A stretch of 64,000 bases of DNA. Origin: Bacilli bacterium. GTDB lineage: Bacteria > Bacillota_I > Bacilli_A > RF39 > UBA660. The translations under genes and the position numbers were made by a program. The notes below the pieces were generated by a model. It did not search any database, was not told the DNA's origin, and saw only the letters and a program-made list of their open reading frames with translations. Within the stretch, counting starts at the first letter, position 1; every line of letters starts with the position of its first letter. Of the stretch, positions 7,585 through 55,124 are shown piece after piece. Where the stretch lies: positions 1,715 through 65,714 of the forward strand of contig JAFSEY010000009.1 in assembly GCA_017435485.1 (NCBI GenBank), in the 5' to 3' direction.

Positions 7585-7704
7585 ATTTATCTCCCATATA
7601 TTTTATGGAATGAAAACATTTTAGCTTATTACAAATGTCTTTATTTTTTTAGAAATTTTTTTGTGTATCTCTTGCTTGTTTTTTTATTCAAGTATAGATT
7701 TACA

Positions 7705-8533: not shown

Positions 8534-8653
8534 CGACTTATCCCCCTCAAAAATTTATAGTAAGAAAAAGAAAAACTTGTTATTAAAAAGTTTTTCTTGT
8601 ACTACTAAGTTTTTTTACGCGCTACCCATAAGAGAATGTTAACTTCTTGTCTT

Positions 8654-9127: not shown

Positions 9128-9149
9128 TTTGCCCCCTATAATTAATTTT

Positions 9150-9190
9150 ATAAATAAGAAAAAGAAAACTATTTATAAAGAGTTTTCTTA
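9150..9190 (-). terminator. Rho-independent terminator between the repeat array and the toxin ORF
   Basis: The stem 9164-9170/9181-9187 (gaaaact/agttttc) is followed on the minus strand by a U-rich tract. Confidence 0.5.
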
Positions 9191-9197
9191 TTTACTA

Positions 9198-9295
9198 CCG
9201 GGATAACTTATTACTCGCACCACCCGAGAGCGAGAAACATTGACAATCGGGATAACTTATTACTCGCACCACCCGAGAGCGAGAAACATTTCCTA
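9198..9295 (-). ncRNA. Tandem direct repeat of two 49-nt units; candidate ToxI-like antitoxin RNA
   Basis: Unit 1 at 9198-9240 and unit 2 at 9247-9289 are 43/43 identical (cgggataacttattactcgcaccacccgagagcgagaaacatt). The array is locally GC-rich, contains an internal ctcgc...gcgag stem, and lies upstream of the toxin ORF on the same strand. Confidence 0.45.
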
Positions 9296-9364
9296 TATTA
9301 GGATATGCAATCGCAGAATATTATTCCTCAATTACATTTATAAAATATCATATAATTTACATAA

Positions 9365-9399
9365 AGTAAAGAAAAAACAAATGATTTTATTCATTTGTT
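9365..9399 (-). terminator. Rho-independent terminator of the coupling-protein gene
   Basis: A 9-bp stem (aacaaatga/tcatttgtt) with a 6-nt loop lies directly after the stop codon and is followed by a U-run on the minus strand. Confidence 0.55.
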
Positions 9400-11679
9400 T
9401 TAGTCTTCGTCATCAAAGAAATCATCAAAAAATTCATCATCCGAAATAACATTTTCTTTTACAACTATACTGTCTTTGTCAACATTGATAATTGGTTTTT
9501 CAGTTTCAATTTTCTTTTCTTCTTTGATTTCTGATTTATTCAATTTTTCAGTTTTTATTTCAGGAGTTTCTTCTATCGAAGGAAGGACTATTTTGGGAAT
9601 TTCAGTTTTATCTTCTGTTTCTAAAGTTTTTTGTTCTTCTTTAGTCACATTTGCTTTTTCTTCTTTTTCCTTCTCTCTTCTTTCTTCCTCTTCTAATTCT
9701 TTAATCTTTTTATCGATATCTTTCATCATAGCATCGATATCCATATTAGATAAAGCATCACCAGTACCAGGCATGCCAAAAGGATTTGGTGTAGGACGAG
9801 GATTCATCCCTCCCATTGGATTCATACCTCCTCCAAAAGGTAATCCTGCATTTGGATTTGACATTGGTCCAAATGGACTTCCAAATCCTCCACCCATAGG
9901 TGGCATTCCAAAGTTAGGACTAAATCCTGGTTGATTTGGCATATTAGCATTTTTTTCTAACATTTGTTTTTTCTTTTCTTCAGTTACATAAGCTTTTAAA
10001 TCAAATAACTGAATTTCTTCTTTTTTTCTAGTTGGGAACTCAGCTATTGATGATTCGATTCCCCATTTCATTTTAAAGTTAGGTTCTAACTTAGTTTTAA
10101 ATGGATGAGTTCTTAATCTAATAATAATTACTTGTCCTAGTTTTAATTTTTGTAAATCCGATACTGTAATTAACGGAGTTGAAGCAGTTTTATCTTTTTC
10201 TTTAGATTTAACTTCTCCACACATTTCACTAATTTCTTTTAAAGCAGCTATTTCAGTACTAATTAAATAAACTAAATTACCGCAATTTCCTTTAATAACT
10301 TGCGCAACTTCTTGACCATAAACATCGTTTAATTGCGCAAAGTTTTGAATAATAAATGTAAAACGAATATCTCTGCTTCGAGCAGCAGATACCATTGAAT
10401 CAACGTCTTTTAAAGGTGGCATGTTGGCAAACTCATCTAAAATAAAGTTTGTTCTATATGGTAATTTACCACCATTTTCTTGAGCAACGTCAATTAATGT
10501 TTCATAACATTGTTTTATAAAAATAGTCATTAAACTATGATAAGTTTTCTTTTCATCATGGATAAGTAAAAATACTGCAGTTTTTTTCTTACCTATATCA
10601 GTCATCTCAAAATCACTATAAGCTAACATTTCACTTAATGATTCACGAGATGAGAATAATCTTATCTTTTGTCTAAATGTTGATAAGATACCACCTTTAG
10701 TATCTGTTGGTGCATTAATAGTATTACTAGCAAAAATATATGGACTTGAGGATTCCCCTTTTAATTGAAAATATTCTTTAATATAGTTACTAGTTGCATA
10801 TCTTTCTTCTCCAACTGTACTCATTAGATTGATACTATTTAAGTTTACTTCTCTTTCTTTAGCATCTTCAAATAGACCTAGTGCTAAACCTGAAAAGTAG
10901 TCAGCAGCACTCTTTTCCCAGAAGTCAGAATCACTTTTACTAGTTGGATCATATAAAATATTTAATGCGACGTCATCTAAAAGCTCAGTAGCTTTATCCT
11001 TATTACCTTTTATGTAGTATTCATATGGTAAGTGTAATGGATTCCAGGCATTACCATTTTGAGTATCACGGAAGTTTAGTAATATGATATTATAACCACG
11101 ATCTTTTAACATGTTTCCACATTCACGATATAACTCACCTTTAGGATCGGTAATAATCATACTTTCGCCCTTTTTAGCAAGTAAGTTTACCATCGGTTTA
11201 ACAATCATTTCTGATTTACCAGATCCAGTAGATCCAATAACTAAGTTATGATAATCACTATTATCTACCCATAATTCCTTAGAATTATTAATTAAAGGAA
11301 TACCGGCTGCATCAAGATTTTTAGCTGAAGGATTAACTTTAGTTGCTCCTTTACTTTTTTTAATTTCATCTTCTTTAGCCCATCTAGAATATCCATCTGA
11401 ACCTTTCTCTTTAATAGTTAAACCAATACCGCCACTTTTATCACGGCTAAAAATATATGATGATACACTTGTAAATATAATAATTAATGCTATAACAAAC
11501 ATTGCTATTGTCACTGGTAAATATGGCATTAGAAAAGCTCTAAAAGGAAGCAGACCATAAAAACGTCCTTCTGTTGTCAAAGAAGTAAAATTAAGTACTG
11601 CTATTGCACATAAATAAAGCAATAAAATGCAATAAAGTACAAACAACAAAAAATCTTTAGGTTCAACTTTAAATTTCAT
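9400..11679 (-). CDS. Type IV secretion coupling protein, VirD4/TraG/TraD family
   Basis: It has N-terminal transmembrane helices, a Walker A motif (LVIGSTGSGKSE), ITDPKGELY, and a Walker B-like FILDEFANMP. An unusual C-terminal tail contains a Pro/Gly/Met-rich repeat, a charged coiled coil, and an acidic DDEFFDDFFDDED end. Confidence 0.85.
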   Translation of the reverse strand: MKFKVEPKDFLLFVLYCILLLYLCAIAVLNFTSLTTEGRFYGLLPFRAFLMPYLPVTIAMFVIALIIIFTSVSSYIFSRDKSGGIGLTIKEKGSDGYSRWAKEDEIKKSKGATKVNPSAKNLDAAGIPLINNSKELWVDNSDYHNLVIGSTGSGKSEMIVKPMVNLLAKKGESMIITDPKGELYRECGNMLKDRGYNIILLNFRDTQNGNAWNPLHLPYEYYIKGNKDKATELLDDVALNILYDPTSKSDSDFWEKSAADYFSGLALGLFEDAKEREVNLNSINLMSTVGEERYATSNYIKEYFQLKGESSSPYIFASNTINAPTDTKGGILSTFRQKIRLFSSRESLSEMLAYSDFEMTDIGKKKTAVFLLIHDEKKTYHSLMTIFIKQCYETLIDVAQENGGKLPYRTNFILDEFANMPPLKDVDSMVSAARSRDIRFTFIIQNFAQLNDVYGQEVAQVIKGNCGNLVYLISTEIAALKEISEMCGEVKSKEKDKTASTPLITVSDLQKLKLGQVIIIRLRTHPFKTKLEPNFKMKWGIESSIAEFPTRKKEEIQLFDLKAYVTEEKKKQMLEKNANMPNQPGFSPNFGMPPMGGGFGSPFGPMSNPNAGLPFGGGMNPMGGMNPRPTPNPFGMPGTGDALSNMDIDAMMKDIDKKIKELEEEERREKEKEEKANVTKEEQKTLETEDKTEIPKIVLPSIEETPEIKTEKLNKSEIKEEKKIETEKPIINVDKDSIVVKENVISDDEFFDDFFDDED

Positions 11680-11738
11680 AAGCTCTGCTCCTTTTTTTAC
11701 TATGATTATTATACTATAAAAATTTTTTTTGGCAAATA

Positions 11739-12584
11739 TTATTTAAAAGTATCCTGTAATACTAAATTTGAATACATTCCATTTAGATTATATAGAGATA
11801 ATTGATAACCAGTATCACTAGGATAATAACAAGTAAACATTAAATATTTAGTTAAATCTAATTCAAAATATTCTGCTAAACTCACAGCGCAACTTACATC
11901 CGATGTGTTTTTATAAATTAAATTAGGTTGCTTTATATAGTTTATAAATGCTATAGAAAATTCTGGATAACTATATTCTTCTTCTAAACCATTAACTAAA
12001 CTAACCATATATAAACTTTCTCTTATCCCATCTTTATTATAATCCGATGTGTTTTTGTTTATCGATAAAATATTAATGTCATATGTAATACCTAAATTGT
12101 CAAGGTATTTACTAATAATAATCTTATCTTCTTCTGTAATTAATTCTTCATCTAGGCTAAATCTATTGAACTCTTTAGTTGTATTAACACCTAGAATCTT
12201 TTCTGTTATGTTTATTTTATTATTTGTATTATCATAAATATACCAACCATTATTAAATACCGCTGTGTAATTTCCTAATAGATTTGAATTATCATAAATA
12301 GAAAATTGTTTTTTTAATAATATGTCATCATTTGCACTATTCCAATTTGATATCGTTTTAGTAATAATAGCTCCATCTTCAATAAATAAAATTGCTTCTA
12401 TTTTTTCATTTTCTTCAGGTTCATTATTGATTGATGGTGGTGTTGGAATAGGATCTTTAGTTGGATTATTATCTTTATTGTTTATTGAATCCTTATCAAA
12501 TCCAAATATCACTAGCATAACAATGAAATATACCAAGACAATACTCCCAAAAATAATTATGGGTTTAATATTAACTTTATTCAT
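11739..12584 (-). CDS. Membrane-anchored hypothetical protein associated with the T4SS-like cluster
   Basis: It has one N-terminal transmembrane segment and a Pro-rich linker, with no recognisable catalytic motif. It lies between the hydrolase and the coupling protein. Confidence 0.35.
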   Translation of the reverse strand: MNKVNIKPIIIFGSIVLVYFIVMLVIFGFDKDSINNKDNNPTKDPIPTPPSINNEPEENEKIEAILFIEDGAIITKTISNWNSANDDILLKKQFSIYDNSNLLGNYTAVFNNGWYIYDNTNNKINITEKILGVNTTKEFNRFSLDEELITEEDKIIISKYLDNLGITYDINILSINKNTSDYNKDGIRESLYMVSLVNGLEEEYSYPEFSIAFINYIKQPNLIYKNTSDVSCAVSLAEYFELDLTKYLMFTCYYPSDTGYQLSLYNLNGMYSNLVLQDTFK

Positions 12585-12597
12585 TTATAACTCCTTT

Positions 12598-14574
12598 TTA
12601 TTGATTTATACATACTTTATCTATATATGGTAATGGCTTTTTATCACCGTAATCAGTATAAACATCTCCATTTTGAGCTCTTGATGGATTCCACATCATT
12701 AATTTGGTCCACCCATTCGCTTCAGTTGATGCTACATCCAAGACAACAAAATGAGTACCTTTTCCTGCTCCAGGATTTTTTACTTGCATAACAATAGCAC
12801 AATTAGGTGTTACAGCTGCTTTAATTGCAGCAATTTTCTCTGTTTTTGATCCAGACAAATAAATTCTTCCATTACCATCCGAAGTTACAGAACCACTTGG
12901 TACAATACTTTGTATTGCTGTAGTTCTAGTTGGTTCTCCTACTAATCCCCCGCCAGGATAAAAAGCATTTTGTTTTTTTAATGCTTTAGCAAAAGTACCG
13001 GGGTTAAATTCTTCAAGTGTTGTTTCAGCTCCTAAGGAAGCAAATGATATGGCAATCGATGTTACATAACATCCAATATCTTTCATAGTCGTCCCTGATG
13101 CAGTTCCCAAAGAAAAACTTCCCCATTCTTTAGCTCCCTGCTTCCAGTTGGCATAATCTCCTGCTGCAACAGTATAATTAAATGTTACTTCGCCTGAGGC
13201 TATTTGAACATTACCGGCTCCATAAGTTTCAATGATTATTTCAGTATAGTCGCTTCCATTTGTTCCTGATGTTATAATTTTTGTTTTTATATCATCTGTT
13301 AAACTAGTTGCATACGGTTTTGAGTTATTTGAAGCATCTTTTAAATATTTACCTACTACTGTTGCTGATATAGATTCTAAAGAGTCTATTTCTGTTTCAG
13401 ATAGTGCAATATCTTGCCATACTACAGCACCTTCTGTTTCCGCATTTACCTCTGGACTATAAATAATGGTTCCGTCTTCTTTTTCTAATTTATAAGCTGT
13501 TTTTTCATAATCCCAATATATTAAATTGTTACTAGTAGTATTTACAGTTACAGTTTTTGTGGAAGTATTTAATCCTAATGTACCATCATCAGTCATTGAT
13601 AATAAATTATTACGATTTATAATTAATGCGGCTTTAAAGGCTTCTGGATTAGAAGTTATTACATCTTTTCCAAGTTGTGCAACAGTTGCTCCCATTATAT
13701 ATTTTTCAAACGGCACTACTTCTAAGGTTTTAGTATTATCACTATTTAAAATCTCAACTTTTAAATTTTCAATTTCTACACCATTAATTGAATATTTAAC
13801 ACTAGCACCTGCTACACCGGATGTATTTCCCATGGATACGTCATCGCCCACTGCTCCAGCAAAAATACATAGCCCAAATATTAAAACAGCAAAAAATATT
13901 ATTCCTAATGTGACTGGCCAATTGGTAATTGCTAATGAAATTAATTTAGCTGCCCCTTTTAAAGCAACTTTGGTACCTTTGACTGCTGCTTGCCCTGCTT
14001 TTTTTGCACCTTTGGCAGTTGCTTTCCCAGCTTTTTTCGCAGTATTTTTAGCTACTGTTTTTGCTTTACCTTTTAATTGATTTTTAGCATATTCTAAAGG
14101 ATGCATTGTTTTAAAAGCCTTTGATTTAGCATTATTTATTTTATTTTGAAACTTAGCGTTTTTAGCATCAAAAACTCGCTTATTGTCTTTGGCTTTATCA
14201 ATAATATTTTTATTTTTTGTAATAGGATCTTCACGAAGCTTTTTTCCTGTATTAGGATCTCGCATCACTTTTCCCGTATCTTGATCTCGTTTAACTTTAC
14301 CTTTTTTTTCTTTAGTTCCTTTAGCTCTTTCAGCCTTAGCATCCTGTAAATTTTGATTTAATCTTTCTTTTTCAGCTTTATAATGATTGTTATTATATTT
14401 TCCATTTTCATCTCTAGCTGCATTGTATTCATCCTCACCAAATCTTTTTTTCTCTTGTTGCTGACCTTGTTCTTCATCCATAGATTCAGTTTGGTCTTCT
14501 AATTCATCATTTCCAAGTTCTTCCAATGAATCTATATCATCTAAAAAATCATCTTCATGCATCAATCTCACCAC
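12598..14574 (-). CDS. T4SS-associated cell-wall hydrolase candidate (papain-like Cys peptidase / CHAP-like C-terminal domain)
   Basis: The N-terminus is acidic and then Lys-rich (KKAGKATAKGAKKAG), followed by one transmembrane segment. The C-terminal domain has a candidate Cys (KDIGCYVTS) and His (GTHFVVLDV) pair. Position and architecture parallel CwlT, TcpG and Orf14. Confidence 0.45.
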   Translation of the reverse strand: MVRLMHEDDFLDDIDSLEELGNDELEDQTESMDEEQGQQQEKKRFGEDEYNAARDENGKYNNNHYKAEKERLNQNLQDAKAERAKGTKEKKGKVKRDQDTGKVMRDPNTGKKLREDPITKNKNIIDKAKDNKRVFDAKNAKFQNKINNAKSKAFKTMHPLEYAKNQLKGKAKTVAKNTAKKAGKATAKGAKKAGQAAVKGTKVALKGAAKLISLAITNWPVTLGIIFFAVLIFGLCIFAGAVGDDVSMGNTSGVAGASVKYSINGVEIENLKVEILNSDNTKTLEVVPFEKYIMGATVAQLGKDVITSNPEAFKAALIINRNNLLSMTDDGTLGLNTSTKTVTVNTTSNNLIYWDYEKTAYKLEKEDGTIIYSPEVNAETEGAVVWQDIALSETEIDSLESISATVVGKYLKDASNNSKPYATSLTDDIKTKIITSGTNGSDYTEIIIETYGAGNVQIASGEVTFNYTVAAGDYANWKQGAKEWGSFSLGTASGTTMKDIGCYVTSIAISFASLGAETTLEEFNPGTFAKALKKQNAFYPGGGLVGEPTRTTAIQSIVPSGSVTSDGNGRIYLSGSKTEKIAAIKAAVTPNCAIVMQVKNPGAGKGTHFVVLDVASTEANGWTKLMMWNPSRAQNGDVYTDYGDKKPLPYIDKVCINQ

Positions 14575-14603
14575 CTAAATATATTTAAGTTCAAAAAGAA
14601 GGA

Positions 14604-16388
14604 TTATAATCCTCCTCCTGAACCAAAGAAATCTAACTCTTCTTGTGTTGCAATAATTTGAACTCTCATTCTTCTATTACCACATACAAATAATCCATCA
14701 CCTTGATTATAATATTTTATACTTTCTTTTTCATTTTCGTTTAAATCAATTAATTGCGATAAATCTTCGACTGCTTGTTTTTTTAATCCCATAACTAAAT
14801 AATAAGCAGCATTATCAAATATAGCTTTACCATGAACAATTACTCTTGGATCTGCAAAATCTGTTGGTTGTTGAGTAATGATAATTGTACCAGTATTATA
14901 CTTTCTACTACGTCTTTGAATTTGGGCTAAGAATTCAGCTCCAAGTTCATTATTACCAGCAAGTAATACGTGAGCTTCATCAACCATCATTACAGTGTTA
15001 ATATTACTATCTAAACATAGGCTCCATGCATACTTTAAGATATTAAAGAATAAAGCATTTTTAATATTAGAATCACTATTCATTAACTCTTTGATATTAA
15101 ATACAATAAAATCACTGTCTAATTGAATTGTTGTATGTCCTGTAAAAAAATAACGTAATTCATTAACTAATGGACGGATTTTAAGTTCTAATCTTTCCAT
15201 TACATCTCTTTCATGAGTTGCATCAGTCATTGATAATAATTTACCTTTAATTGTTGCATACACATCATCAAATGTTGGATAATCAGCTGATGTTAATTTT
15301 GTAAAATCAGTGTTAACATCAATTTTATAACGTTTATATGTTTCTGTTACAACATCTGTAAACATTGCTAAAACATCATCTTCAATACTTGGAGAATAAT
15401 ATTTCATAAAAGCTTTTAATTGCTGTAAAGTTTTAGCTAAAACAGTATAACCTAGGCCTTGAGCAATTTCATCTTCATCAATATCTAAAACAACTTCTAG
15501 TGGATTTATCATACCTAGTTGTCCACCACTACCTAAATCGATAAAGTCTCCTCCAACAATATCACACATGTTTTGTAATTCACCTTCAGGATCAATACAA
15601 ACAACTTTATATCCATTTCTTAAGTGGCTTCTAACAAGTAACTTAGCAGCAGTTGATTTACCACTACCAGCAGAACCTAAAATAATAATGTTTGCGTTAT
15701 TACGATTATTTTCCTTTTTTATTTGATATAAGAATTGATTGAATAAAATTACTCCTCCGGAGAAATCAACACCTAGTAATGTAGAATTTCCTGGGTCTTT
15801 AATGCTATCAAAAACAAATGGATACATTGCCGATAATGTAACAGATGGAATTGGTGTTCCAATTCTATTTTCAATATCTTGGCTTGGGAAAATTGGAATA
15901 ATAGACTTTAATACTTTTTCTTGTTCAAACATTAAAGATATTCCACGCATTCCGTAACGATCTAAATGATTACGTACATGCATTTTCTTAAGTTCCAAAT
16001 CTTCTTTATTATCAGCAGTAATCATTAAATGCATTTGAAAATCGAATATACGAGCTTGAGTAGCTGCTAACATCGAAATAAATTGTTCTAATGATTCATA
16101 ATCTAAACGAATGCCTTCTTGAATTGTATTATCTTTTTCATTTTGATAACGCATCTTTAGTTCTGCTACTTCTTTATTAAGCATTTTTCTAATTGTGTCA
16201 AATGGCATTGGAATATGTTTAATAGCTAACTTGACACCACCGATAGCAGTAATATCTGCTAAGTATCCTACCGGAACAGCTTTTGGAAAAGCAATAACAG
16301 TCATAATCGTACAATATTTACCACCTAAAACAAATTCAGTTGGTTTAAACTCCATACCTTTTGGAGCAACTTCACTTTTTAATCCCAT
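14604..16388 (-). CDS. VirB4/TraE-family T4SS ATPase
   Basis: It has a Walker A motif (ILGSAGSGKST), VVCIDPEGE, and a Walker B motif (MMVDEAH). Its 594-aa length is consistent with VirB4-family proteins of Gram-positive conjugation systems (ConE, TcpF, Orf16). Confidence 0.85.
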   Translation of the reverse strand: MGLKSEVAPKGMEFKPTEFVLGGKYCTIMTVIAFPKAVPVGYLADITAIGGVKLAIKHIPMPFDTIRKMLNKEVAELKMRYQNEKDNTIQEGIRLDYESLEQFISMLAATQARIFDFQMHLMITADNKEDLELKKMHVRNHLDRYGMRGISLMFEQEKVLKSIIPIFPSQDIENRIGTPIPSVTLSAMYPFVFDSIKDPGNSTLLGVDFSGGVILFNQFLYQIKKENNRNNANIIILGSAGSGKSTAAKLLVRSHLRNGYKVVCIDPEGELQNMCDIVGGDFIDLGSGGQLGMINPLEVVLDIDEDEIAQGLGYTVLAKTLQQLKAFMKYYSPSIEDDVLAMFTDVVTETYKRYKIDVNTDFTKLTSADYPTFDDVYATIKGKLLSMTDATHERDVMERLELKIRPLVNELRYFFTGHTTIQLDSDFIVFNIKELMNSDSNIKNALFFNILKYAWSLCLDSNINTVMMVDEAHVLLAGNNELGAEFLAQIQRRSRKYNTGTIIITQQPTDFADPRVIVHGKAIFDNAAYYLVMGLKKQAVEDLSQLIDLNENEKESIKYYNQGDGLFVCGNRRMRVQIIATQEELDFFGSGGGL

Positions 16389-16390
16389 TA

Positions 16391-16945
16391 TTACATCACC
16401 GTCCCAAAACTAGTATTAGCACCATCGTTAAAGAAATTATCTAAAATTACTCTTAAATCGTTATTAGAAACTTGAACCGAATTTAATCCAGCATTGGCTA
16501 AATTCATAATTAAATTACGTAATTTCTTTTGAACTATTTCTAATCTCTTTTCTTTAAATAAAATAAAATATTCTGTATCAACAACGCCATATTCTTGACC
16601 AGCAAACATATTTCCTTTGTTAATATCTTGCATAATTAATTTACGAGCAATTGGATTAGGGTTGTTATTATATAATAATTGTAATTGAGACATATAAACA
16701 TGAATATCTACTGGACGATCTGCTACAATTAACCAAAATTCATAATCAATTGTGTTGTAAAAATTACGAAGGGCTGCTAACGCTGAATCTTGAGCTCCCT
16801 TTTCTAAAATAAAGATATTTTTAGGAGCAATTTTTACTCCACTTACATATTGTCCATCATCTAATTGGATCATACCATTTAAAATTTGTTTAATTGGTAA
16901 CCAATCCTCTGTATATTTTTCTCCACTATTTTGTGTCGTCGCCAT
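16391..16945 (-). CDS. T4SS-associated cytoplasmic protein of unknown function (probable start at the internal MATTQNSG)
   Basis: The track ORF 16391..17002 overlaps the upstream gene. The internal Met at 16945 gives only a 20-nt overlap, typical of translational coupling. Confidence 0.35.
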   Translation of the reverse strand: MATTQNSGEKYTEDWLPIKQILNGMIQLDDGQYVSGVKIAPKNIFILEKGAQDSALAALRNFYNTIDYEFWLIVADRPVDIHVYMSQLQLLYNNNPNPIARKLIMQDINKGNMFAGQEYGVVDTEYFILFKEKRLEIVQKKLRNLIMNLANAGLNSVQVSNNDLRVILDNFFNDGANTSFGTVM

Positions 16946-17252
16946 ACCACACACACCAACCTTTCCATTTATAGCTTTTTTGCTTAAAAATAAATGTAAC
17001 AATATTAATGATTAATTGTAATATATTATGATAATGAGGCACTGGCATTACTAAAAAAGCTGATACTAATGCCGGTGCTAAAATCATCATCAAAGTTTTA
17101 AATTCAGTTGAATTAATTACTAACAACATTATTACTGTGGTTAGTACTCCAAAACCAAATATAAACAAATCAACCATTGTAAAATAACCTAATATTAATC
17201 CAGAACGTTTAGCATTTGCTGGAATTAAATAAGTTTGTTCTTCTTGTTCCAT
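16926..17252 (-). CDS. Small two-transmembrane protein, VirB3/ConD/Orf17-like by position and topology
   Basis: It is 108 aa with two hydrophobic helices and lies immediately upstream of the VirB4 gene, as in ICEBs1 and Tn916. Confidence 0.4.
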   Translation of the reverse strand: MEQEEQTYLIPANAKRSGLILGYFTMVDLFIFGFGVLTTVIMLLVINSTEFKTLMMILAPALVSAFLVMPVPHYHNILQLIINIVTFIFKQKSYKWKGWCVWYGDDTK

Positions 17253-17270
17253 ATATTATCTCCCTTTTTA

Positions 17271-19523
17271 TTATTTTTTCTTTTCAGAATCTTGTCTTTC
17301 TCTTTCAAACTTAGTAATAGCTGCTTTTAATTCTGTTTTTCTTAAGTCTGATTCTGTTCCAAATGCTTTGAATTCATCACTATTAACTGTTATAGAAGCT
17401 TTTACTCCATCCAGGGTGAATCCAGCTGCTTGAACTGCAGGACTGGCAATATTCTTTTCAAGTAAATTCTTAAATTCAACGGCACTTTGTCTAATATCTC
17501 CCAAATCTCCTGCGAGACTTTTATTGACTTTGATAAAGCGATCCCATTCATCATCACTAACTAAGGCTTGATTTTGAATTGCATCTTGTAGCAATTTTTG
17601 ATCATTTGCAAATTGTTTTTGTAAGTAGGCGTATTCTTCACTACGTCCTCCAGCTTGAGCTGCCTCCATTTGAGTTTTTGTTGCTCTTAAATCGTTAACA
17701 TCTAGTGTTTTAATGTTACCACTAGTATTAATTTTTTCAATCAACCTATTTAAAGACTGAATTTCAGCATCTGAATCGGATCTACCGCTAGCTTTCATAG
17801 TTTCTACAATAGATTCTAATTCCTTACGTTGAGCAGTCATATCCACAACACATGTTATACCTAAACTTGAACTAGCTTTTGATAACTCTTTTGTAATTAA
17901 TCCTTCAGCTGCAGTACGAGTTCCTTTTTTTGCTGAACCCATTTTTTCTAAGTCTGCTAATTCAGCTTTTGCATCTTCAACACTATTAATTCCAAAATAG
18001 TCACCAACTCTTCTAACTGTATCTTTTGCATGCCCACTAATACTTCCCCAAACAGTTCCACCATGACTAGCCTTATATCCTTTTCTTTCAACAGCTTTTT
18101 CACCAGCTTTTGTTGCTCCCTTTCGGGCGTGTTCTCTCATTCCTTTTACATCATTAGTATCTTTCCCAAAAGATCTAACTCCACCAGACACAAAACCTGC
18201 CGCTCCTCTAAGCAAGCCTTCTCCAAGTCCAGCAGCAATACCACCAACTCGCATCCTTCTTTGCTCTCCTTTAGAATATAAAATTGGAGAATCAGAGTTT
18301 AATTTTTCTTTGACCTTATTTCTATAAGAATTATTAGTGAATCCCCCCACTGCATTTCTAATCCCTGAAGTTAGAGCACCGCCAACCATAGCTCCACCAA
18401 TGAATGCACCACCAGCTGCTAGCTTGTCTTTAATGCCCATACTCATATTTTTACTGTCAATACCAGTTATTTCACTTATTAATTGTGGTGCTTGTTTTGC
18501 AAACATTAAACATCCCATTATTAATAACGCTCTTAATATTCTTGTTGTAAAATATCCTGCTCCCTCATCTATAACCCCCTTATTAAATACAACACAAATA
18601 ACTCTTATTAGATAAACCATTAAGAATAATATTGCAATTCTTAATAAAGCTTCAAAAAAAGTTGTTAAAGTTACTTTTATCCATTTTTTTAACATATCTT
18701 TTTTCCCTGGTATTATATCAGCCATTGCAGGAAGTGGCGCTATAATTTCATAAAATGCTAATTTTACTAATCTTAAAGCTAAAGACAAGCAGTAACTAAT
18801 CATCATATAAATACAAAATCCACCAGCAACTAATGCAAATACCCAATTATAGACTATATATCCATCATTTCTTGTTTCCTCATTAATTATATCGGCATAT
18901 AATTTATAATGATTAAAATTCCCGTCAGCTACAACCATATCATGAATTTCTTGATACTTTCTTCCTCCATAATTAAAGTTGTCAATTTCCTCTTGAATAG
19001 TTTCATTATCTTTGTTTTCTTCTACTACATATGGATAGAAAAATGACTCAAATATAGTTATTGAAATATCAATCCCAGCTTGTTCGATAACCTCAGCAAC
19101 GGTTTGTTGATTTCCTGTTTGAGAAACTAAATATTCATTAGATGAATTTGAATCATTAGTTCCAAGAATGATTTTTCCTATTGTGTTTTTTTCTAATAAA
19201 GAATCTTGAACAACAAATGCAAATTCAAACGCTGTTGGAACAATCGCTATAACAACGATTGCTTTTATAACATCTAAAATTATTTTTCCAGCTCCACTTT
19301 TGTCTTTCGCATCGGGATTTACTATAGTTCTTAACATTGAATATGCTAAGAAAAATAACATTACTACGCCTATTACTGTGTACATTCTGCGGATAATAGG
19401 AGCCAATACATTATCTTCACTACTAAATATATTTAATTTTGCCAAATACAGAAAAATATTATATAACGCTGCTATACCGCTATAAATCCAGCTTACCACT
19501 TCAATCAAAAAATTATTTATCAT
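17271..19523 (-). CDS. VirB6/TrbL-like polytopic membrane protein with a long C-terminal soluble domain (ConG/TcpH/Orf15 analogue)
   Basis: It has six or more transmembrane helices in the N-terminal 370 aa, a Gly-rich segment (AAGGAFIGGAMVGGALTSG), and about 350 aa of hydrophilic, partly coiled sequence. Confidence 0.55.
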   Translation of the reverse strand: MINNFLIEVVSWIYSGIAALYNIFLYLAKLNIFSSEDNVLAPIIRRMYTVIGVVMLFFLAYSMLRTIVNPDAKDKSGAGKIILDVIKAIVVIAIVPTAFEFAFVVQDSLLEKNTIGKIILGTNDSNSSNEYLVSQTGNQQTVAEVIEQAGIDISITIFESFFYPYVVEENKDNETIQEEIDNFNYGGRKYQEIHDMVVADGNFNHYKLYADIINEETRNDGYIVYNWVFALVAGGFCIYMMISYCLSLALRLVKLAFYEIIAPLPAMADIIPGKKDMLKKWIKVTLTTFFEALLRIAILFLMVYLIRVICVVFNKGVIDEGAGYFTTRILRALLIMGCLMFAKQAPQLISEITGIDSKNMSMGIKDKLAAGGAFIGGAMVGGALTSGIRNAVGGFTNNSYRNKVKEKLNSDSPILYSKGEQRRMRVGGIAAGLGEGLLRGAAGFVSGGVRSFGKDTNDVKGMREHARKGATKAGEKAVERKGYKASHGGTVWGSISGHAKDTVRRVGDYFGINSVEDAKAELADLEKMGSAKKGTRTAAEGLITKELSKASSSLGITCVVDMTAQRKELESIVETMKASGRSDSDAEIQSLNRLIEKINTSGNIKTLDVNDLRATKTQMEAAQAGGRSEEYAYLQKQFANDQKLLQDAIQNQALVSDDEWDRFIKVNKSLAGDLGDIRQSAVEFKNLLEKNIASPAVQAAGFTLDGVKASITVNSDEFKAFGTESDLRKTELKAAITKFERERQDSEKKK

Positions 19524-19539
19524 ATTATATTACTCCTTT

Positions 19540-20862
19540 TTAGTTTAATCCGCAGGTGTTATAAGCACCTAACAACGATAATATAAAGTTTATTAGTACC
19601 GGAAGAAAGAATATTACAATTGCTGCAATTAATCTTTTTACTGCTGTTGTTGCCGATTTTTTCAATTGGTCTTTATCTTGATTAATTGTTGCTTTTATAA
19701 AATCCATTGTACTTAAGGCAAACACTAAAATAATTGCACCATACTTCATAATATTAAGTGTTAAGTCTAAATAATAAGCTGGTTCGCAATCAATTCCAGT
19801 TGGACATTCTCTATTTCCTAAAAAACCTTCACAGCCTTCTTCTCCGCCCCAATCTAATTTATGTTTCCCAACACTTTGAATACGCAAGTTAGCATACTCA
19901 CCTAGACCCTCAGTGAGTTCATCTAAATTTTCGGCAATATTACCACTGTATTCCTGTCTTAGTTCATCAGTTAACGAAGCATCGTTTTTTAAAACTTGCT
20001 CACACGATTCATAAGCCAAATCAAATTTTGTGTTAACTACTTCCGCAACTTTATTAAATGATTCCGTATTCAATAAAAAATCTGGAATATCTTCCACTTG
20101 CCAATCGCTACGAATAAAATATGATTGGATTAATTGTTTTTTTATTTGAGTTTCTATTTCTGTAATGTATTCAGTTACTATTCCATTTTCATCTTCCCTT
20201 TTATTTTTCAAATTATTACAAAATGGATTTTCTGCTAAACTTTTATCTGGATAAACTGAAAAAGTTACTGTAAGATACTTATCTAACATTGAGTTAATTA
20301 CTTTTTCTTGTTCTGACATAAAATCAAAGGTTCTTTTTACTTCAGGTTTAAGATACCAATAATATTGACCAAATCTGCTAGAATATCCTTCTTCAATTTT
20401 ATTATAATAAAACATTGGTGCTCCACTACCGTTTGGTATAGCGTTTTTTGTAAAAATATACTCTGGACATTGAAATTTTTCAAACATAACTTTCAAATCA
20501 TCATCGCCATAATACCCATCGCCAGTTTTTAAATTATTAGTAGTAAATCCTGCATCCTTACCTGCAATTCTTTTAATTCTTACGACACCATCTGATCCAA
20601 GATACTCATAAACTAATTCATACTTTTTTTTGTTAACAGAATAAAAAACAGTAGAAGTTATATTATATACAACAGTACTTGCGTATGTTTTTTGAGGATC
20701 AAATGGCTTATCCTCCAATGAAGAAGTAGGAATTCTTAATACGGTATTTTCCCATTGACACACTTTTGTCGCATCTCCATAAGAGGAAGAGAGCTCAGTT
20801 GCTTCAACAAAAATTGGGCAAAAAATTGTTAACAAAAATAATAATTTTAATTTTTTTTTCAT
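19540..20862 (-). CDS. Secreted protein (Sec signal peptide) whose C-terminal ~75 aa is a copy of the two-helix membrane module found in ORFs 20871..21248 and 49235..49666
   Basis: It has a signal peptide MKKKLKLLFLLTIFCPIFVEA and a Cys-containing ectodomain. The C-terminus ...YGAIILVFALSTMDFIKATINQDKDQLKKSATTAVKRLIAAIVIFFLPVLINF aligns to both small paralogs. Confidence 0.5.
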   Translation of the reverse strand: MKKKLKLLFLLTIFCPIFVEATELSSSYGDATKVCQWENTVLRIPTSSLEDKPFDPQKTYASTVVYNITSTVFYSVNKKKYELVYEYLGSDGVVRIKRIAGKDAGFTTNNLKTGDGYYGDDDLKVMFEKFQCPEYIFTKNAIPNGSGAPMFYYNKIEEGYSSRFGQYYWYLKPEVKRTFDFMSEQEKVINSMLDKYLTVTFSVYPDKSLAENPFCNNLKNKREDENGIVTEYITEIETQIKKQLIQSYFIRSDWQVEDIPDFLLNTESFNKVAEVVNTKFDLAYESCEQVLKNDASLTDELRQEYSGNIAENLDELTEGLGEYANLRIQSVGKHKLDWGGEEGCEGFLGNRECPTGIDCEPAYYLDLTLNIMKYGAIILVFALSTMDFIKATINQDKDQLKKSATTAVKRLIAAIVIFFLPVLINFILSLLGAYNTCGLN

Positions 20863-20870
20863 AAACGCAC

Positions 20871-21248
20871 CTACTCTGTAAATATTCCATCTTTATCATT
20901 TATTTTGCATGTAGATGGTTCTTTTAAACAATTCGTTAAGCAATCAAATTTTTTTGTTTTATCAGCACCATCTACTAATGACATCACCGCGGTTATTACA
21001 TAAGGAATAAAGAAAATCACCACTGCTGCTATTGCCTTTTTCACTAAAGAACTAATAGCTATTTTAATTGCTTTGTCGTCATTTGATAAGACTGCTTTTC
21101 CTAATTCAAAAGATCCAAGTCCTATTAAAAGAATTGGAATAACTATTTTTAAAAATATAAATATATATCCAAGTATTTGAAATGTTTTTAATAAACCACT
21201 TTGATCACAAATTGCAAAGTCAGCTAACGTAAAAATTTTTTCCATCAC
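20871..21248 (-). CDS. Small two-transmembrane protein, member of a three-paralog pilin-like family (first gene of the T4SS-like cluster)
   Basis: It is 125 aa with hydrophobic helix 1 (FQILGYIFIFLKIVIPILLIGLGSF), a conserved motif ELGKAVLSNDDKAIKIAISSLVKKAIAAVVIFFIPYV, and a Cys-containing tail. Confidence 0.5.
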   Translation of the reverse strand: MMEKIFTLADFAICDQSGLLKTFQILGYIFIFLKIVIPILLIGLGSFELGKAVLSNDDKAIKIAISSLVKKAIAAVVIFFIPYVITAVMSLVDGADKTKKFDCLTNCLKEPSTCKINDKDGIFTE

Positions 21249-49666: not shown

Positions 49667-49723
49667 AATCTCTCCTTCTCTGCATATAATTTTAACTAAA
49701 TTATCTTATTTTGTCAATATATA

Positions 49724-50719: not shown

Positions 50720-50731
50720 TATTATCCCTCT

Positions 50732-51217: not shown

Positions 51218-51227
51218 ATCTTACCTC

Positions 51228-51701: not shown

Positions 51702-51712
51702 TTGCGTATCAC

Positions 51713-51940: not shown

Positions 51941-51949
51941 TTGTTAATC

Positions 51950-52225: not shown

Positions 52226-52305
52226 TTATAAATCATCTCCTATTTTTATTTATATTTTTATTATACATATTTTTTCTGTTAATATCAATATTTTTAAAAT
52301 TACTT

Positions 52306-53987: not shown

Positions 53988-54002
53988 TTATATACCTTCT
54001 TT

Positions 54003-55109: not shown

Positions 55110-55124
55110 GGTCTTACCTCTTTT

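What the first reader, a model, noticed from the sequence alone, without database searches (positions are those of the whole stretch)
9400..21248. Nine-gene T4SS-like cluster (VirD4, VirB4, VirB6-like, hydrolase, VirB3-like) with no relaxase, integrase or replication genes in view
The gene order on the minus strand is as follows. A pilin-like two-transmembrane protein comes first, followed by the secreted 440-aa protein, a VirB6/TrbL-like protein (750 aa), a VirB3-like protein (108 aa), an unknown protein (about 184 aa), VirB4 (594 aa), a Lys-rich hydrolase (658 aa), an anchored unknown protein (281 aa) and a VirD4 coupling protein (759 aa). This resembles the mating-pair-formation core of Gram-positive ICEs such as ICEBs1, Tn916 and pCW3, but uses a VirD4-type rather than an FtsK-type coupling protein. 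The flanks are housekeeping genes (rhodanese and DedA on one side, VanY and trmL on the other) and defence remnants, with no MOB relaxase, tyrosine or serine recombinase, or oriT-nicking enzyme within 8 kb. The cluster could be a decayed ICE, a T4SS co-opted for protein secretion, or part of a larger machine that includes the Tad locus.
Basis: partly seen in the sequence, partly recalled or inferred. Interest (0 to 1): 0.6.

Follow-up and report, generated by a model that had tools for sequence, protein, structure and literature searches.

The report
Chromosome-fixed secretion machine in gut Bacilli
This nine-gene cluster is not a decaying mobile element but a conjugation-type (type IV) secretion machine without DNA-nicking or integration genes, inherited vertically at one chromosomal site by hundreds of uncultured gut Bacilli species, with a highly conserved motor and rapidly changing surface parts.

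Summary
In detail: nine co-oriented, tightly packed minus-strand ORFs (9400-21248) encode VirD4, a split VirB4 (VirB3-like + TrsD-like N-domain + ATPase), an extended VirB6-like protein, a membrane-anchored wall-hydrolase candidate, a small anchored protein and two pilin-like proteins. No relaxase, integrase or att repeats lie nearby.

It is neither an ICE nor a remnant. At least 497 species-representative genomes of uncultured gut Bacilli (probably GTDB order RF39) carry the VirB4 at 77-81% identity. In 44 of the 80 best-matching loci the order pilin-like, VirB6, VirB3, TrsD-like, VirB4, hydrolase, small ORF, VirD4 sits beside the same rhodanese-DedA(-RmuC) genes. Motor genes evolve like housekeeping genes (dN/dS 0.03-0.07) and track flank divergence (Mantel r 0.86). 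Surface-exposed segments are swapped as cassettes even between sister genomes. VirD4 ends in an invariant DDEFFDDFF tail.

The closest mobile relatives are Firmicutes plasmids at 29% identity. The closest concept is the relaxase-less, pilin-bearing chromosomal T4SS of Patescibacteria. I found no paper describing this in RF39. The substrate is unknown; I favour contact-dependent export to other cells.

The parts
9400..11679 (-). VirD4-type coupling protein (759 aa). It has two N-terminal TM helices, Walker A GSTGSGKS and Walker B ILDEF. A low-complexity Gly/Pro/Met and Lys/Glu linker leads to an invariant C-terminal motif ...KP.INVD.DS..V..N.I(S/T)DDEFFDDFF.
   Evidence: Pfam PF02534 2.4e-52, PF10412, PF12696; NCBIfam conju_CD1115 8e-88, above cutoff. 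29% identity, 1e-64, to pBMB68 VirD4. Tail motif identical in all 43 complete orthologues. dN/dS 0.074.
11739..12584 (-). Small N-terminally anchored surface protein (281 aa) of unknown fold, in a hypervariable cassette slot. It could be a VirB8-like scaffold or an exclusion/recognition protein.
   Evidence: No family hit. Only 4 homologues among 5.8 billion proteins. AF2 model unusable, pLDDT 42.6. The slot is always occupied, but by 3 unrelated families across 45 genomes. 30% aa identity to the sister genome, against 99% for VirB4.
12598..14574 (-). Bitopic 658-aa protein and candidate cell-wall hydrolase (functional VirB1/PrgK/CwlT analogue). It has a Lys-rich cytoplasmic N-terminus, one TM (~aa 213-240) and an ectodomain with a SpoIID-like stretch and a C-terminal Cys/His papain-like domain.
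   Evidence: No significant hit for this copy. Positional orthologues carry SpoIID, NlpC/P60, CHAP, M23, Phage_lysozyme, Phage_lysozyme2 and C39_2-like domains. C-terminal domain 31% identity, 3e-15, to the L005 domain. The ectodomain has no DNA similarity to the sister genome.
14604..16388 (-). VirB4 ATPase, C-terminal two-thirds (594 aa). Walker A GSAGSGKST and Walker B MMVDEAH are intact.
   Evidence: NCBIfam NF045975 1.2e-103 (model 296-893), CD1110 3e-49. PDB 4ag5 1.3e-59. More than 7000 homologues at 78-81% identity, all 594-595 aa. dN/dS 0.025.
16391..17002 (-). TrsD-like protein: the VirB4 N-terminal domain encoded as a separate ORF. It is 184 aa from the ATG at 16945 and 203 aa from the TTG at 17002. 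Its stop overlaps the virB4 start.
   Evidence: NF045975 model positions 97-279, 4.4e-13. 29% identity, 1e-18, to the ORF upstream of virB4 in pBMB68. Present directly upstream of VirB4 in 80/80 loci. TrsD is described as a VirB4 N-terminus homologue in PMC12102498.
16926..17252 (-). VirB3/PrgI/TcpE-like small membrane protein (108 aa).
   Evidence: PF12648 TcpE 0.0028; NF045975 model positions 2-96, 0.005. N-terminal motif shared with the pBMB68 PrgI-family protein, 0.007. Same position as PrgI in pBMB68. Present in 79/80 loci.
17271..19523 (-). Extended VirB6-like polytopic membrane protein (750 aa). The membrane domain (aa 1-383) is conserved. The ~370-aa C-terminal domain is hypervariable.
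   Evidence: NCBIfam MMCAP2_0566 5.5e-11, pLS20_p028 1.9e-10, Mbov_0396 1.6e-9, all below cutoff. The C-terminal extension (153-458 aa, all but one at least 277 aa) is present in all 59 orthologues, in several sequence families. No DNA similarity to the sister genome at 17284-18376.
19540..20862 (-). Secreted 440-aa protein. In order: signal peptide, variable beta-rich distal domain (aa ~31-180), helical stalk (181-334), Cys-rich linker, and a C-terminal two-helix membrane hairpin paralogous to the 125-aa protein.
   Evidence: AF2 model pLDDT 78.6. No PDB fold match. Only 12 homologues. The hairpin motif C..G(F/L)LG..PAYY(L)...KY.AI...DF.KA...DKD.LKKA...KRLI...IFFLP is conserved. The N-domain has no DNA similarity to the sister genome.
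20871..21248 (-). Pilin-like two-TM hairpin protein (125 aa), candidate VirB2 analogue.
   Evidence: Pfam PF18895 T4SS_pilin sub-threshold: window copy 0.16, orthologues 4.2e-5, 2.2e-4 and 3.3e-4, covering nearly the whole model. Paralogous to the C-terminus of the 440-aa protein.
7654..9372 (.). Strain-specific insertion between VirD4 and the rhodanese gene; not part of the T4SS. It holds a truncated DUF1016_N ORF and an intact cptIN type III toxin-antitoxin module.
   Evidence: Absent from sister genome L001. CptIN toxin NF047359 5.5e-44, above cutoff. Two 49-nt tandem repeats at 9190-9287.

Best explanation
**What it is.** The cluster is a domesticated, chromosomally fixed monoderm type IV secretion system. 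It descends from a Firmicutes conjugation machine of the TrsD-containing kind and lacks any relaxase, integrase or oriT module. It is inherited vertically as a core locus of a large lineage of uncultured, low-GC gut Bacilli, probably GTDB order RF39.

**Proposed working (inferred from the parts).**
- VirB3-like, TrsD-like and VirB4 form the membrane-bound assembly/translocation ATPase.
- The extended VirB6-like protein forms the membrane channel.
- The anchored modular hydrolase opens the cell's own peptidoglycan.
- Two pilin-like hairpin proteins, one carrying a large variable ectodomain, build a surface fibre or contact structure.
- VirD4 selects a cytoplasmic substrate or adaptor through its invariant acidic-aromatic C-terminal tail (DDEFFDDFF) and feeds it to the channel.

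The system is therefore most likely used for contact-dependent export to, or exchange with, another cell, not for moving a mobile element. The hypervariable exposed modules would set or escape partner, phage or host recognition.

**Shown:** gene identities of the two ATPases; conservation; synteny; purifying selection; cassette-like variability; absence of relaxase and integrase nearby.

**Inferred:** assembly into one machine; export direction; pilus formation; nature of the substrate.
For: **T4SS identity.**

**Same module order as a real conjugative plasmid, but without its MobP3 relaxase.** pBMB68 runs relaxase, VirD4, small ORF, TrbL, PrgI, TrsD-like, VirB4, NlpC/P60.

**Lineage-wide conservation.**
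- More than 7000 VirB4 homologues at 78-81% identity and 594-595 aa.
- At least 497 species-representative genomes.
- One tight 50%-identity cluster; the next relatives are at 44-46%, and all others are at most 34%.

**Fixed chromosomal site.** VirD4-rhodanese(-DedA) adjacency in 41-44 of the 80 best-matching loci, with RmuC following in 9.

**Co-divergence with flanks.** Mantel r 0.86-0.87, p 0.001, 36 species. VirB4 is more conserved (87% mean identity) than DedA or rhodanese (64%).

**Purifying selection.** dN/dS 0.025-0.074 for VirB4, TrsD-like, VirB3 and VirD4, against 0.015-0.095 for the flanks.

**Mobility genes absent.**
- No relaxase, integrase or Rep family among 105 flanking ORFs of 12 species or between window positions 555 and 34853.
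- No att repeats and no tRNA gene.

**Conserved slots with swapped contents.**
- There are always exactly two ORFs between VirB4 and VirD4.
- The hydrolase is a domain mosaic.
- Three unrelated small-ORF families occupy the second slot, incongruent with the motor tree in 12 of 36 nearest-neighbour pairs.
- Segment boundaries of non-homology with the sister genome fall at the membrane-exit points.
- dS of 0.8-1.1 in variable genes against 0.1-0.3 in the background points to allelic replacement.

**Other features.** The VirD4 tail is invariant in 43 of 43 orthologues. The pilin-like domain gives consistent hits.

**Precedent.** Patescibacteria have a relaxase-less chromosomal MPF_FATA-derived T4SS with TrsD, VirB3, VirB6 and variable VirB2-like pilins, essential for epibiotic growth (PMC12102498; PMC12857230).
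Against: - No functional or expression data exist, and no substrate has been identified.
- Only 64 kb of this genome and 20-kb neighbourhoods of the others were seen, so a relaxase encoded elsewhere cannot be excluded.
- VirB3, VirB6, pilin and (for this copy) hydrolase assignments rest on sub-threshold hits, position and orthologue domains.
- No VirB8-like component could be shown.
- In part of the lineage (for example L038, L064, L035, L057) no VirD4 or hydrolase lies within 10 kb of VirB4. The nine-gene architecture is therefore not universal.
- The RF39 assignment rests on my recollection of GTDB placements of the CAG/UMGS genomes. The only indirect support is.
- Promoter and terminator scans were uninformative in this AT-rich DNA, so the single-operon reading rests on spacing only.
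Confidence: 0.6

Rival explanations
1. It is a relaxase-independent DNA-exchange machine. The fixed T4SS mediates conjugation-like transfer of chromosomal DNA between cells of the lineage without oriT. This would resemble mycoplasma chromosomal transfer, or DNA release as by the Neisseria GGI. The variable surface modules would act as mating or exclusion specificity determinants.
For: - The best VirB4 model match is the mycoplasma ICE VirB4 family, Mbov_0397.
- Mycoplasma ICE T4SSs move chromosomal DNA (PMC12857230).
- A conserved VirD4 of the DNA-transfer Pfam families is present.
- dS in the variable genes is 3-5 times the background, which implies frequent homologous replacement of alleles among genomes.
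- A hypervariable VirB6 C-domain plus a hypervariable small membrane protein or lipoprotein recalls TraG-exclusion protein pairs. This comparison is from established knowledge and was not tested here.
- RmuC is a recurrent neighbour.
Against: - No relaxase, DDE recombinase or other DNA-processing gene is linked in any locus examined.
- The T4CP domains do not discriminate DNA from protein substrates.
- Recombination in the variable genes could equally come from transformation.
Confidence: 0.22
2. It is an ordinary ICE or integrated conjugative plasmid. Its relaxase, integrase and att sites simply lie outside the window.
For: - The gene set and order match a conjugative plasmid transfer module.
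- Coupling protein and relaxase can be encoded away from virB4 (PMC12102498).
- Only part of the genome is visible.
Against: - The same chromosomal junction (VirD4-rhodanese-DedA) occurs in 41-44 species, with co-divergence of motor and flanks.
- Flanking ORFs in 12 species are housekeeping genes.
- VirB4 is 87% conserved across species whose neighbouring genes are 64% identical.
- There are no att repeats or tRNA.
- GC is 0.29-0.33, like other coding-dense parts of the window.
- Plasmid relatives reach only 29% identity.
Confidence: 0.04
3. It is a decayed ICE remnant with no current function.
For: Relaxase and integrase are absent. A strain-specific insertion sits next to VirD4.
Against: - All nine ORFs are intact.
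- Walker motifs are intact.
- dN/dS is 0.025-0.074.
- VirB4 length is invariant in more than 7000 homologues.
Confidence: 0.02
4. It is a DNA-uptake (competence) T4SS, like Helicobacter ComB or the archaeal Ced system. It would import DNA or nucleotides for an auxotrophic cell.
For: - The lineage has a reduced genome (PMC6784871 and PMC12306168, listed).
- VirB4 gives weak hits to the CedD/CedB models.
- Some sub-lineages keep VirB3/TrsD/VirB4/VirB6 and the pilin-like genes without an adjacent VirD4.
Against: - A strongly conserved, linked VirD4 with a conserved docking tail suggests recruitment of a cytoplasmic substrate, which implies export.
- ComB systems lack a coupling protein (established knowledge).
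- In Southlakia, competence and T4SS essentiality were separable (PMC12857230).
Confidence: 0.08

Closest known systems
Chromosomal relaxase-less T4SS of Patescibacteria/CPR (Quinonero-Coronel et al. 2025, PMC12102498; Southlakia epibionticum T4SS, Wang et al. 2023 as reviewed in PMC12857230)
   Same: - Monoderm MPF_FATA-derived gene set with VirB3/PrgI, TrsD, VirB4 and VirB6, with hydrolases downstream of virB4.
- VirB2-like pilin-family proteins that are sequence-hypervariable.
- No relaxase, a chromosomal location, and lineage-wide, mostly vertical inheritance in reduced-genome uncultured bacteria that also carry type IV/Tad-type pilus genes.
   Different: - The host is a Bacilli lineage, not Patescibacteria.
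- The nearest named VirB4 relatives are from Erysipelotrichales at 30-33%. Membership of the Patescibacteria VirB4 clade was not tested.
- VirD4 is linked and strongly conserved here, whereas it is mostly unlinked, and non-essential in Southlakia, there.
- There are only two pilin-like genes rather than arrays, and one is fused to a ~330-aa ectodomain.
- The pilin assignment here is sub-threshold.
- Essentiality is unknown.
Firmicutes conjugative plasmid T4SS with a separate TrsD-like gene, e.g. Bacillus thuringiensis pBMB68 (NZ_CP010581) and the pGO1/pSK41 trs subclass
   Same: - Same order: small membrane ORF, TrbL/VirB6, PrgI/VirB3, TrsD-like, VirB4 (~600-630 aa), wall hydrolase, small ORF.
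- VirD4 of the CD1115 family.
- Pairwise homology: VirB4 29%, TrsD-like 29% (1e-18), VirD4 29% (1e-64).
   Different: - The plasmid has a MobP3 relaxase next to VirD4 and is mobile. Here there is no relaxase.
- VirD4 has moved to the distal end of the cluster.
- VirB6 is extended by ~370 aa.
- A large secreted pilin-hairpin fusion protein is added.
- The locus is fixed in the chromosome.
Mycoplasma ICE T4SS (CDS17/Mbov_0397 VirB4, CDS5 VirD4, CDS16/Mbov_0396 VirB6-like)
   Same: - It is the best-scoring VirB4 model (1.2e-103).
- The three ORFs VirB3-like, TrsD-like and VirB4 are colinear with the single 894-position Mbov_0397 model (positions 2-96, 97-279, 296-893).
- The VirB6-like protein hits the Mbov_0396 and MMCAP2_0566 models.
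- No canonical relaxase is known in those ICEs (PMC12857230).
   Different: - Scores are below the equivalog cutoffs (348 against 590 bits).
- Mycoplasma ICEs are mobile, carry a DDE recombinase and lack a VirB1-like hydrolase because the cells are wall-less.
- Here a large hydrolase is present, and the flanks encode FemAB, VanY and BacA, so the cells have a wall.
Streptococcus suis 89K-type minimal Gram-positive T4SS (VirB1, VirB3, VirB4, VirB6, VirB8, VirD4)
   Same: A minimal monoderm component set, proposed to secrete proteins rather than only DNA (PMC12857230).
   Different: That system sits in a mobile pathogenicity island of a single species. It has no pilin-like genes and is not lineage-fixed. 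No sequence comparison was made here.

Membership tests
Type IV secretion system (monoderm, MPF_FATA-like) | VirB4-family ATPase | tested here: met
   NF045975 1.2e-103, CD1110 3e-49, TIGR00929 5e-22, PF19044/PF12846. PDB 4ag5 1.3e-59. Scores are below the equivalog cutoffs because the protein lacks the fused N-terminal third.
Type IV secretion system (monoderm, MPF_FATA-like) | VirD4/T4CP coupling ATPase | tested here: met
   PF02534 2.4e-52. NF045973 conju_CD1115 at 295 bits, above its 250-bit cutoff.
Type IV secretion system (monoderm, MPF_FATA-like) | VirB6-like polytopic channel protein | tested here: inconclusive
   Three concordant NCBIfam conjugation TM-protein models at 1e-9 to 5e-11, all below cutoff. 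No pairwise similarity to pBMB68 TrbL.
Type IV secretion system (monoderm, MPF_FATA-like) | VirB3/PrgI-like small membrane protein next to VirB4 | tested here: inconclusive
   TcpE 0.0028; Mbov_0397 N-terminus 0.005; PrgI motif 0.007. The position is conserved in 79/80 loci.
Type IV secretion system (monoderm, MPF_FATA-like) | Peptidoglycan hydrolase (VirB1 analogue such as PrgK, CwlT or TrsG) | tested here: inconclusive
   The window copy has no significant domain. Positional orthologues have SpoIID, NlpC/P60, CHAP, M23 and lysozyme domains. The window C-terminal Cys/His domain is homologous to a C39_2-like domain.
Type IV secretion system (monoderm, MPF_FATA-like) | VirB8-like (NTF2-fold) bitopic protein | tested here: inconclusive
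   The 281-aa anchored protein has the right topology, but the AF2 model was unusable (pLDDT 42.6) and no family hit was found.
Type IV secretion system (monoderm, MPF_FATA-like) | TrsD-like protein (VirB4 N-domain homologue; pGO1 subclass marker) | tested here: met
   Homology to VirB4 model positions 97-279 (4.4e-13) and to the pBMB68 ORF upstream of virB4 (1e-18). The CONJscan TrsD profile itself was not run.
Type IV secretion system (monoderm, MPF_FATA-like) | Formal MPF class assignment by CONJscan/MacSyFinder or VirB4 phylogeny | not testable with these tools
   No CONJscan profiles or reference VirB4 tree were available.
Integrative conjugative element (ICE) | Relaxase (MOB) gene linked to the T4SS | tested here: not met
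   None between window positions 555 and 34853. No MobP3 homologue in 1.39 Mb of loci. None among 105 flanking ORFs of 12 species. The rest of the genome was not seen.
Integrative conjugative element (ICE) | Integrase/recombinase and att direct repeats at the borders | tested here: not met
   No recombinase family. Only low-identity AT-rich chance repeats. No tRNA.
Integrative conjugative element (ICE) | Variable presence or insertion site among related genomes; phylogeny decoupled from the host | tested here: not met
   The same VirD4-rhodanese(-DedA) junction occurs in 41-44 species. Mantel r 0.86-0.87 with flanks.
Patescibacteria-type co-opted chromosomal T4SS | Chromosomal, lineage-wide, relaxase-less | tested here: met
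Patescibacteria-type co-opted chromosomal T4SS | VirB2-like pilin genes (PF18895/PF04956) near virB4, sequence-hypervariable | tested here: inconclusive
   PF18895 hits at 4e-5 to 3e-4 for orthologues and 0.16 for the window copy; all are below the 26.6-bit gathering score. Hypervariability of the fused ectodomains is shown.
Patescibacteria-type co-opted chromosomal T4SS | VirB4 belongs to the monophyletic Patescibacteria clade | not tested
   No Patescibacteria sequences were at hand. The nearest named relatives are Thomasclavelia and Solobacterium at 30-33%, which suggests an independent domestication.
Patescibacteria-type co-opted chromosomal T4SS | Required for (epibiotic) growth | not testable with these tools
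   The organisms are uncultured and no genetics are available.
ComB-type DNA-uptake T4SS | Works without a VirD4 coupling protein | tested here: not met
   A conserved VirD4 is linked in this window and in 44 of 80 loci. It is absent nearby in a sub-lineage.

The most novel reading that the evidence does not exclude
The whole RF39-like lineage of uncultured, genome-reduced gut Bacilli depends on a pilus-bearing, relaxase-less T4SS for contact-dependent interaction with other cells. That interaction could be an epibiotic or parasitic lifestyle like that of Saccharibacteria, or relaxase-independent chromosomal mating. The swapped surface cassettes would define partner specificity. As a corollary, pilin-bearing MPF_FATA systems would exist in Firmicutes-related monoderms. 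They could then be the evolutionary source of the Patescibacteria T4SS, which is currently described as unique among monoderms.
Probability: 0.2. Interest if true: 0.85.

Novelty: new member of a known kind. Interest (0 to 1): 0.62.

Why it matters
RF39-type Bacilli are widespread in human and animal guts, have reduced genomes and many auxotrophies, and remain uncultured. How they make a living is an open question. A T4SS that is more conserved than neighbouring housekeeping genes across hundreds of species, yet has cassette-swapped surface parts, marks it as central to their biology and points to cell-cell contact as part of it.

It extends a phenomenon so far reported only for Patescibacteria: a domesticated conjugation machine with pilin-like genes in a monoderm. 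A 2025 review calls that system unique among Gram-positive systems.

It also gives concrete handles for experiments:
- the invariant VirD4 DDEFFDDFF tail as bait for the substrate or adaptor;
- the variable ectodomains as specificity determinants and strain markers.

Tried and rejected
- **Sequence search of the unknown proteins against PDB.** Nothing for the 658-aa or 750-aa proteins.
- **AF2 of the 281-aa protein** with its 5-sequence alignment: pLDDT 42.6, unusable.
- **att-like repeats** flanking the cluster: only low-identity AT-rich matches.
- **Promoter and terminator scan:** counts equal the shuffled expectation, so uninformative.
- **Rfam scan of 7-24 kb:** nothing.
- **RNA fold of the 49-nt tandem repeats:** z-score 0.1, no special stability.
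- **pBMB68 small ORF against the 125-aa protein, and pBMB68 TrbL against VirB6:** no pairwise similarity.
- **Literature searches** for RF39 with T4SS or VirB4: no relevant paper.
- **Attempt to document the RF39 placement of Ca. Onthocola from PMC8035907:** the text is truncated and nothing was found.
- **Alternative genetic code (UGA = Trp)** as the cause of the 'split' VirB4: rejected. The split is conserved in 80/80 loci with intact ORFs, is shared with a Bacillus plasmid, and RF39 genomes are reported to use UGA as stop.
- **Programmed frameshift joining VirB3 and TrsD-like:** rejected, because in some loci the two ORFs do not overlap.

Full report

Yes. Between 9400 and 21248 the minus strand carries nine ORFs separated by 8-59 nt or overlapping by a few bases.

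- VirD4 (9400-11679) matches Pfam T4SS-DNA_transf (2.4e-52), TrwB_AAD_bind and TraG-D_C. It scores above the curated cutoff of NCBIfam conju_CD1115 (295 against 250 bits).
- The 594-aa ORF (14604-16388) is a VirB4 ATPase. It hits the NCBIfam Mbov_0397 family at 1.2e-103, CD1110 at 3e-49, and the crystal structure 4ag5 (VirB4 C-terminal domain) at 1.3e-59.
- Walker A and B motifs of both ATPases are intact in the translations.
- The window has about 27% GC and no tRNA gene.
- Nothing between 555 and 34853 is a relaxase, recombinase or replication protein.

**2. Refining the gene calls**

They cover positions 2-96, 97-279 and 296-893. The middle ORF is therefore the VirB4 N-terminal domain encoded separately.

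The split is not damage, for four reasons:
- It is present in 80 of 80 related loci.
- The stop of the middle ORF overlaps the virB4 start.
- The conjugative Bacillus thuringiensis plasmid pBMB68 has a homologous 227-aa ORF (29% identity, 1e-18) in the same place.
- Such a protein is known as TrsD in the pGO1 subclass of MPF_FATA systems, and is the most abundant T4SS component next to virB4 in Patescibacteria (PMC12102498).

*VirB6-like protein.* The 750-aa protein has three concordant but sub-threshold hits to conjugation membrane-protein families.

*Hydrolase candidate.* The 658-aa protein has no domain hit of its own. Its positional orthologues are mosaics of SpoIID, NlpC/P60, CHAP, M23 and two lysozyme families, behind the same cytoplasmic-tail-plus-TM anchor. 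Its C-terminal Cys/His domain is homologous (3e-15) to one that weakly matches Peptidase_C39_2.

*Pilin-like proteins.* The 125-aa protein and the C-terminus of the 440-aa protein share a conserved two-helix hairpin. Orthologues of the 125-aa protein hit Pfam T4SS_pilin at 4e-5 to 3e-4 over nearly the whole model, just under the gathering score. An AF2 model of the 440-aa protein (pLDDT 78.6) shows these regions in order:
- a signal peptide;
- a beta-rich distal domain;
- a long helical stalk;
- a Cys-rich linker;
- the hairpin.

It has no PDB fold match.

*Small anchored protein.* The 281-aa protein stayed unassigned.

**3. What the comparative data show**

*Breadth.* The VirB4 has more than 7000 homologues at 78-81% identity, all 594-595 aa. 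It is found in at least 497 species-representative genomes. These are named uncultured Bacilli, 'Tenericutes', Mycoplasma sp. CAG:776, Clostridium sp. CAG:609 and Candidatus Onthocola. To my knowledge these belong to GTDB order RF39. The only support from the tools is that misnamed gut 'Mycoplasmatales' with UGA as stop are placed in RF39 (PMC8629427).

*Isolation from other VirB4s.* In a library clustered at 50% identity the family collapses into one cluster. The next relatives are at 44-46% and everything else is at most 34%. The nearest named ones are from Thomasclavelia and Solobacterium. Plasmid homologues reach only 29%.

*Conserved order and site.* Forty-four of the 80 best-matching loci carry a linked VirD4. 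The common order is pilin-like(s), VirB6, VirB3, TrsD-like, VirB4, one large ORF, one small ORF, VirD4. It is followed by rhodanese (41 loci), DedA (36 loci) and often RmuC.

*Vertical inheritance.* Across 36 species, pairwise distances of VirB4 and VirD4 correlate with those of the DedA and rhodanese flanks (Mantel r 0.86-0.87, p 0.001). VirB4 is more conserved (87% mean identity) than those flanks (64%).

*Selection.* Against the sister genome L001 (about 93% DNA identity), dN/dS is 0.025 for VirB4, 0.044 for TrsD-like, 0.034 for VirB3 and 0.074 for VirD4. The housekeeping neighbours range from 0.015 to 0.095.

*No mobility genes.*
- Flanking ORFs in 12 species are DedA, FemAB, MscS, RmuC, ADH, LemA, VanY, UDG and BacA. 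Of the 26 Pfam families found, the 25 listed include no relaxase, integrase or Rep.
- The MobP3 relaxase that accompanies the homologous plasmid module has no homologue in 1.39 Mb of these neighbourhoods.
- No att-like repeats flank the block.

This rules out both an ordinary ICE and a decaying remnant. It establishes a vertically inherited core locus.

**4. Conserved motor, swapped surface**

Against L001, DNA similarity vanishes in four segments:
- all of the 281-aa gene;
- the ectodomain of the 658-aa protein (aa ~242-658);
- the C-terminal ~370 aa of VirB6;
- the distal beta-domain of the 440-aa protein (aa ~4-176).

The cytoplasmic and transmembrane parts of the same genes stay at about 93%. 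In these genes dS is 0.8-1.1, against 0.1-0.3 around them. This indicates replacement by divergent alleles rather than fast point mutation alone.

Across species the small-ORF slot holds three families unrelated by BLASTP: lipoproteins with a C-terminal anchor, and two N-terminally anchored types. The nearest neighbour by motor sequence carries a different family in 12 of 36 cases. The pilin-like paralogues carry N-terminal extensions from almost none to about 370 aa (ORFs of 69-470 aa). VirB6 always has a variable 153-458-aa C-terminal extension, at least 277 aa in all but one orthologue.

By contrast, VirD4 ends in all 43 complete orthologues with the same motif, KP.INVD.DS..V..N.I(S/T)DDEFFDDFF, after a hypervariable linker. 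By analogy with other coupling proteins whose C-terminal tails bind relaxosome or adaptor proteins (established knowledge, not tested here), this is most likely a docking peptide.

**5. Most likely mechanism**

Shown:
- the parts list;
- their conservation;
- their selection regime.

Inferred, as one envelope-spanning apparatus:
- the VirB3/TrsD/VirB4 motor;
- the VirB6 channel;
- the anchored hydrolase, which opens the cell's own wall. The FemAB, VanY and BacA genes in the flanks argue that these cells have peptidoglycan;
- pilin-like proteins forming a fibre or contact structure whose distal domains vary;
- VirD4, which recruits a cytoplasmic cargo through its tail.

A conserved, linked coupling protein argues for export rather than uptake. 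The cargo is unknown.

I favour a contact-dependent interaction device of the kind proposed for Patescibacteria (confidence about 0.6 for the package 'domesticated T4SS used for interaction with other cells'). The main rival is relaxase-independent chromosomal DNA exchange, as mediated by mycoplasma ICE T4SSs (0.22). Uptake (0.08), an ICE with distant mobility genes (0.04) and a dead remnant (0.02) are less likely.

One caveat is that a sub-lineage (for example Mycoplasma sp. CAG:776, L038) has the pilin-like to VirB4 part but no VirD4 or hydrolase within 10 kb. Collagen-like/BclA_C genes and guanylate kinase follow instead.

**6. Comparison with what is known**

- The module order and the pairwise homologies tie the system to TrsD-containing Firmicutes conjugation systems such as pBMB68, which carry a MobP3 relaxase.
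- The HMM best hit ties its VirB4 to mycoplasma ICEs.
- Conceptually it matches the Patescibacteria T4SS: chromosomal, relaxase-less, with TrsD, VirB3, VirB6, hydrolases and hypervariable VirB2-like pilins, and essential for epibiotic growth in Southlakia (PMC12102498).
- A December 2025 review states that VirB2/VirB5 are otherwise not found in Gram-positive T4SSs. It calls the Patescibacteria systems unique among monoderms (PMC12857230).
- Full-text searches found no paper linking RF39 to a T4SS or VirB4.

I therefore file this as a new member of a known kind. It is probably an independent domestication, because its nearest named VirB4 relatives are Erysipelotrichales sequences rather than a demonstrated Patescibacteria clade. 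That last point was not tested.

**7. The Tad idea**

A Tad-like locus does exist in the window. It has a TadA-type ATPase at 54003-55109 and a CpaB-like protein at 55125-55922. It lies about 28 kb away, beyond aminoacyl-tRNA synthetases and other housekeeping genes, and is not in the T4SS neighbourhood of other species. There is no evidence for one combined machine. A functional partnership, as between T4P and T4SS in Saccharibacteria, remains possible.

**8. Verdict**

Interest is 0.62. The finding is not categorically new, but it is a lineage-defining, apparently unreported system in a prominent uncultured gut clade, with testable handles.

Noticed in passing
window 8654-9287 (minus strand): An intact type III toxin-antitoxin module, cptIN. 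The 157-aa ORF 8654-9127 matches NCBIfam CptIN toxin over its full length (5.5e-44, 149.6 bits, cutoff 90). Two tandem 49-nt repeats (9190-9238 and 9239-9287, 94% identical) lie directly upstream and are the likely antitoxin RNA.
   Followed up: partly
window 7654-9372: A 1.7-kb insertion between VirD4 and the rhodanese gene, absent from sister genome L001. It carries the cptIN module and a truncated DUF1016_N (YhcG-like nuclease N-domain) ORF at 8048-8533. DUF1016_N-like ORFs also occur near the T4SS in five other species (L026, L033, L040, L048, L076).
   Followed up: partly
window ~49700-60100 (minus strand): A Tad/Flp-like pilus locus. It has a T2SSE/TadA-type ATPase at 54003-55109, a CpaB/RcpC-like protein at 55125-55922, two adjacent ORFs without Pfam hits (52306-53987) that could be TadB/C-like, and a 993-aa ORF without hits (56367-59348).
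   Followed up: partly
window 23027-23518 (minus strand): A 163-aa ORF matching only the C-terminal half (positions 125-276 of 288) of NCBIfam DNA damage-inducible protein D (5.3e-45, below cutoff). It is possibly a truncated gene.
   Followed up: no
L038:12131-15307 and L064:11864-12469: In the sub-lineage whose T4SS block ends at VirB4, the next genes encode collagen triple-helix repeat proteins. One has a BclA_C (exosporium-like) C-terminal domain, which is unexpected for reduced-genome gut Bacilli.
   Followed up: no
L004:3647-6129, L018:3905-6387, L034:3742-6224, L063:3881-6363, L054:2056-4541: In many species two tandem FemAB-family genes (~408 and ~418 aa) sit directly upstream of the T4SS block on the same strand. 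In this window VanY/LdcB occupies that side. The T4SS is thus repeatedly embedded among cell-wall genes (FemAB, VanY, BacA).
   Followed up: partly
L064:7027-8232 (minus strand in the locus): A 401-aa T2SSE-family ATPase (Pfam 5e-124) lies immediately upstream of the VirB3/TrsD/VirB4 trio in one species. That species lacks a detectable VirB6 or pilin-like gene nearby.
   Followed up: no
window 555-3104 and 27722-29770 (minus strand): Two large fused ABC-ATPase plus FtsX-permease (MacB-like) proteins (849 and 682 aa). Homologues recur in the flanks of the T4SS in several other species (L016, L037, L043, L047, L068).
   Followed up: no
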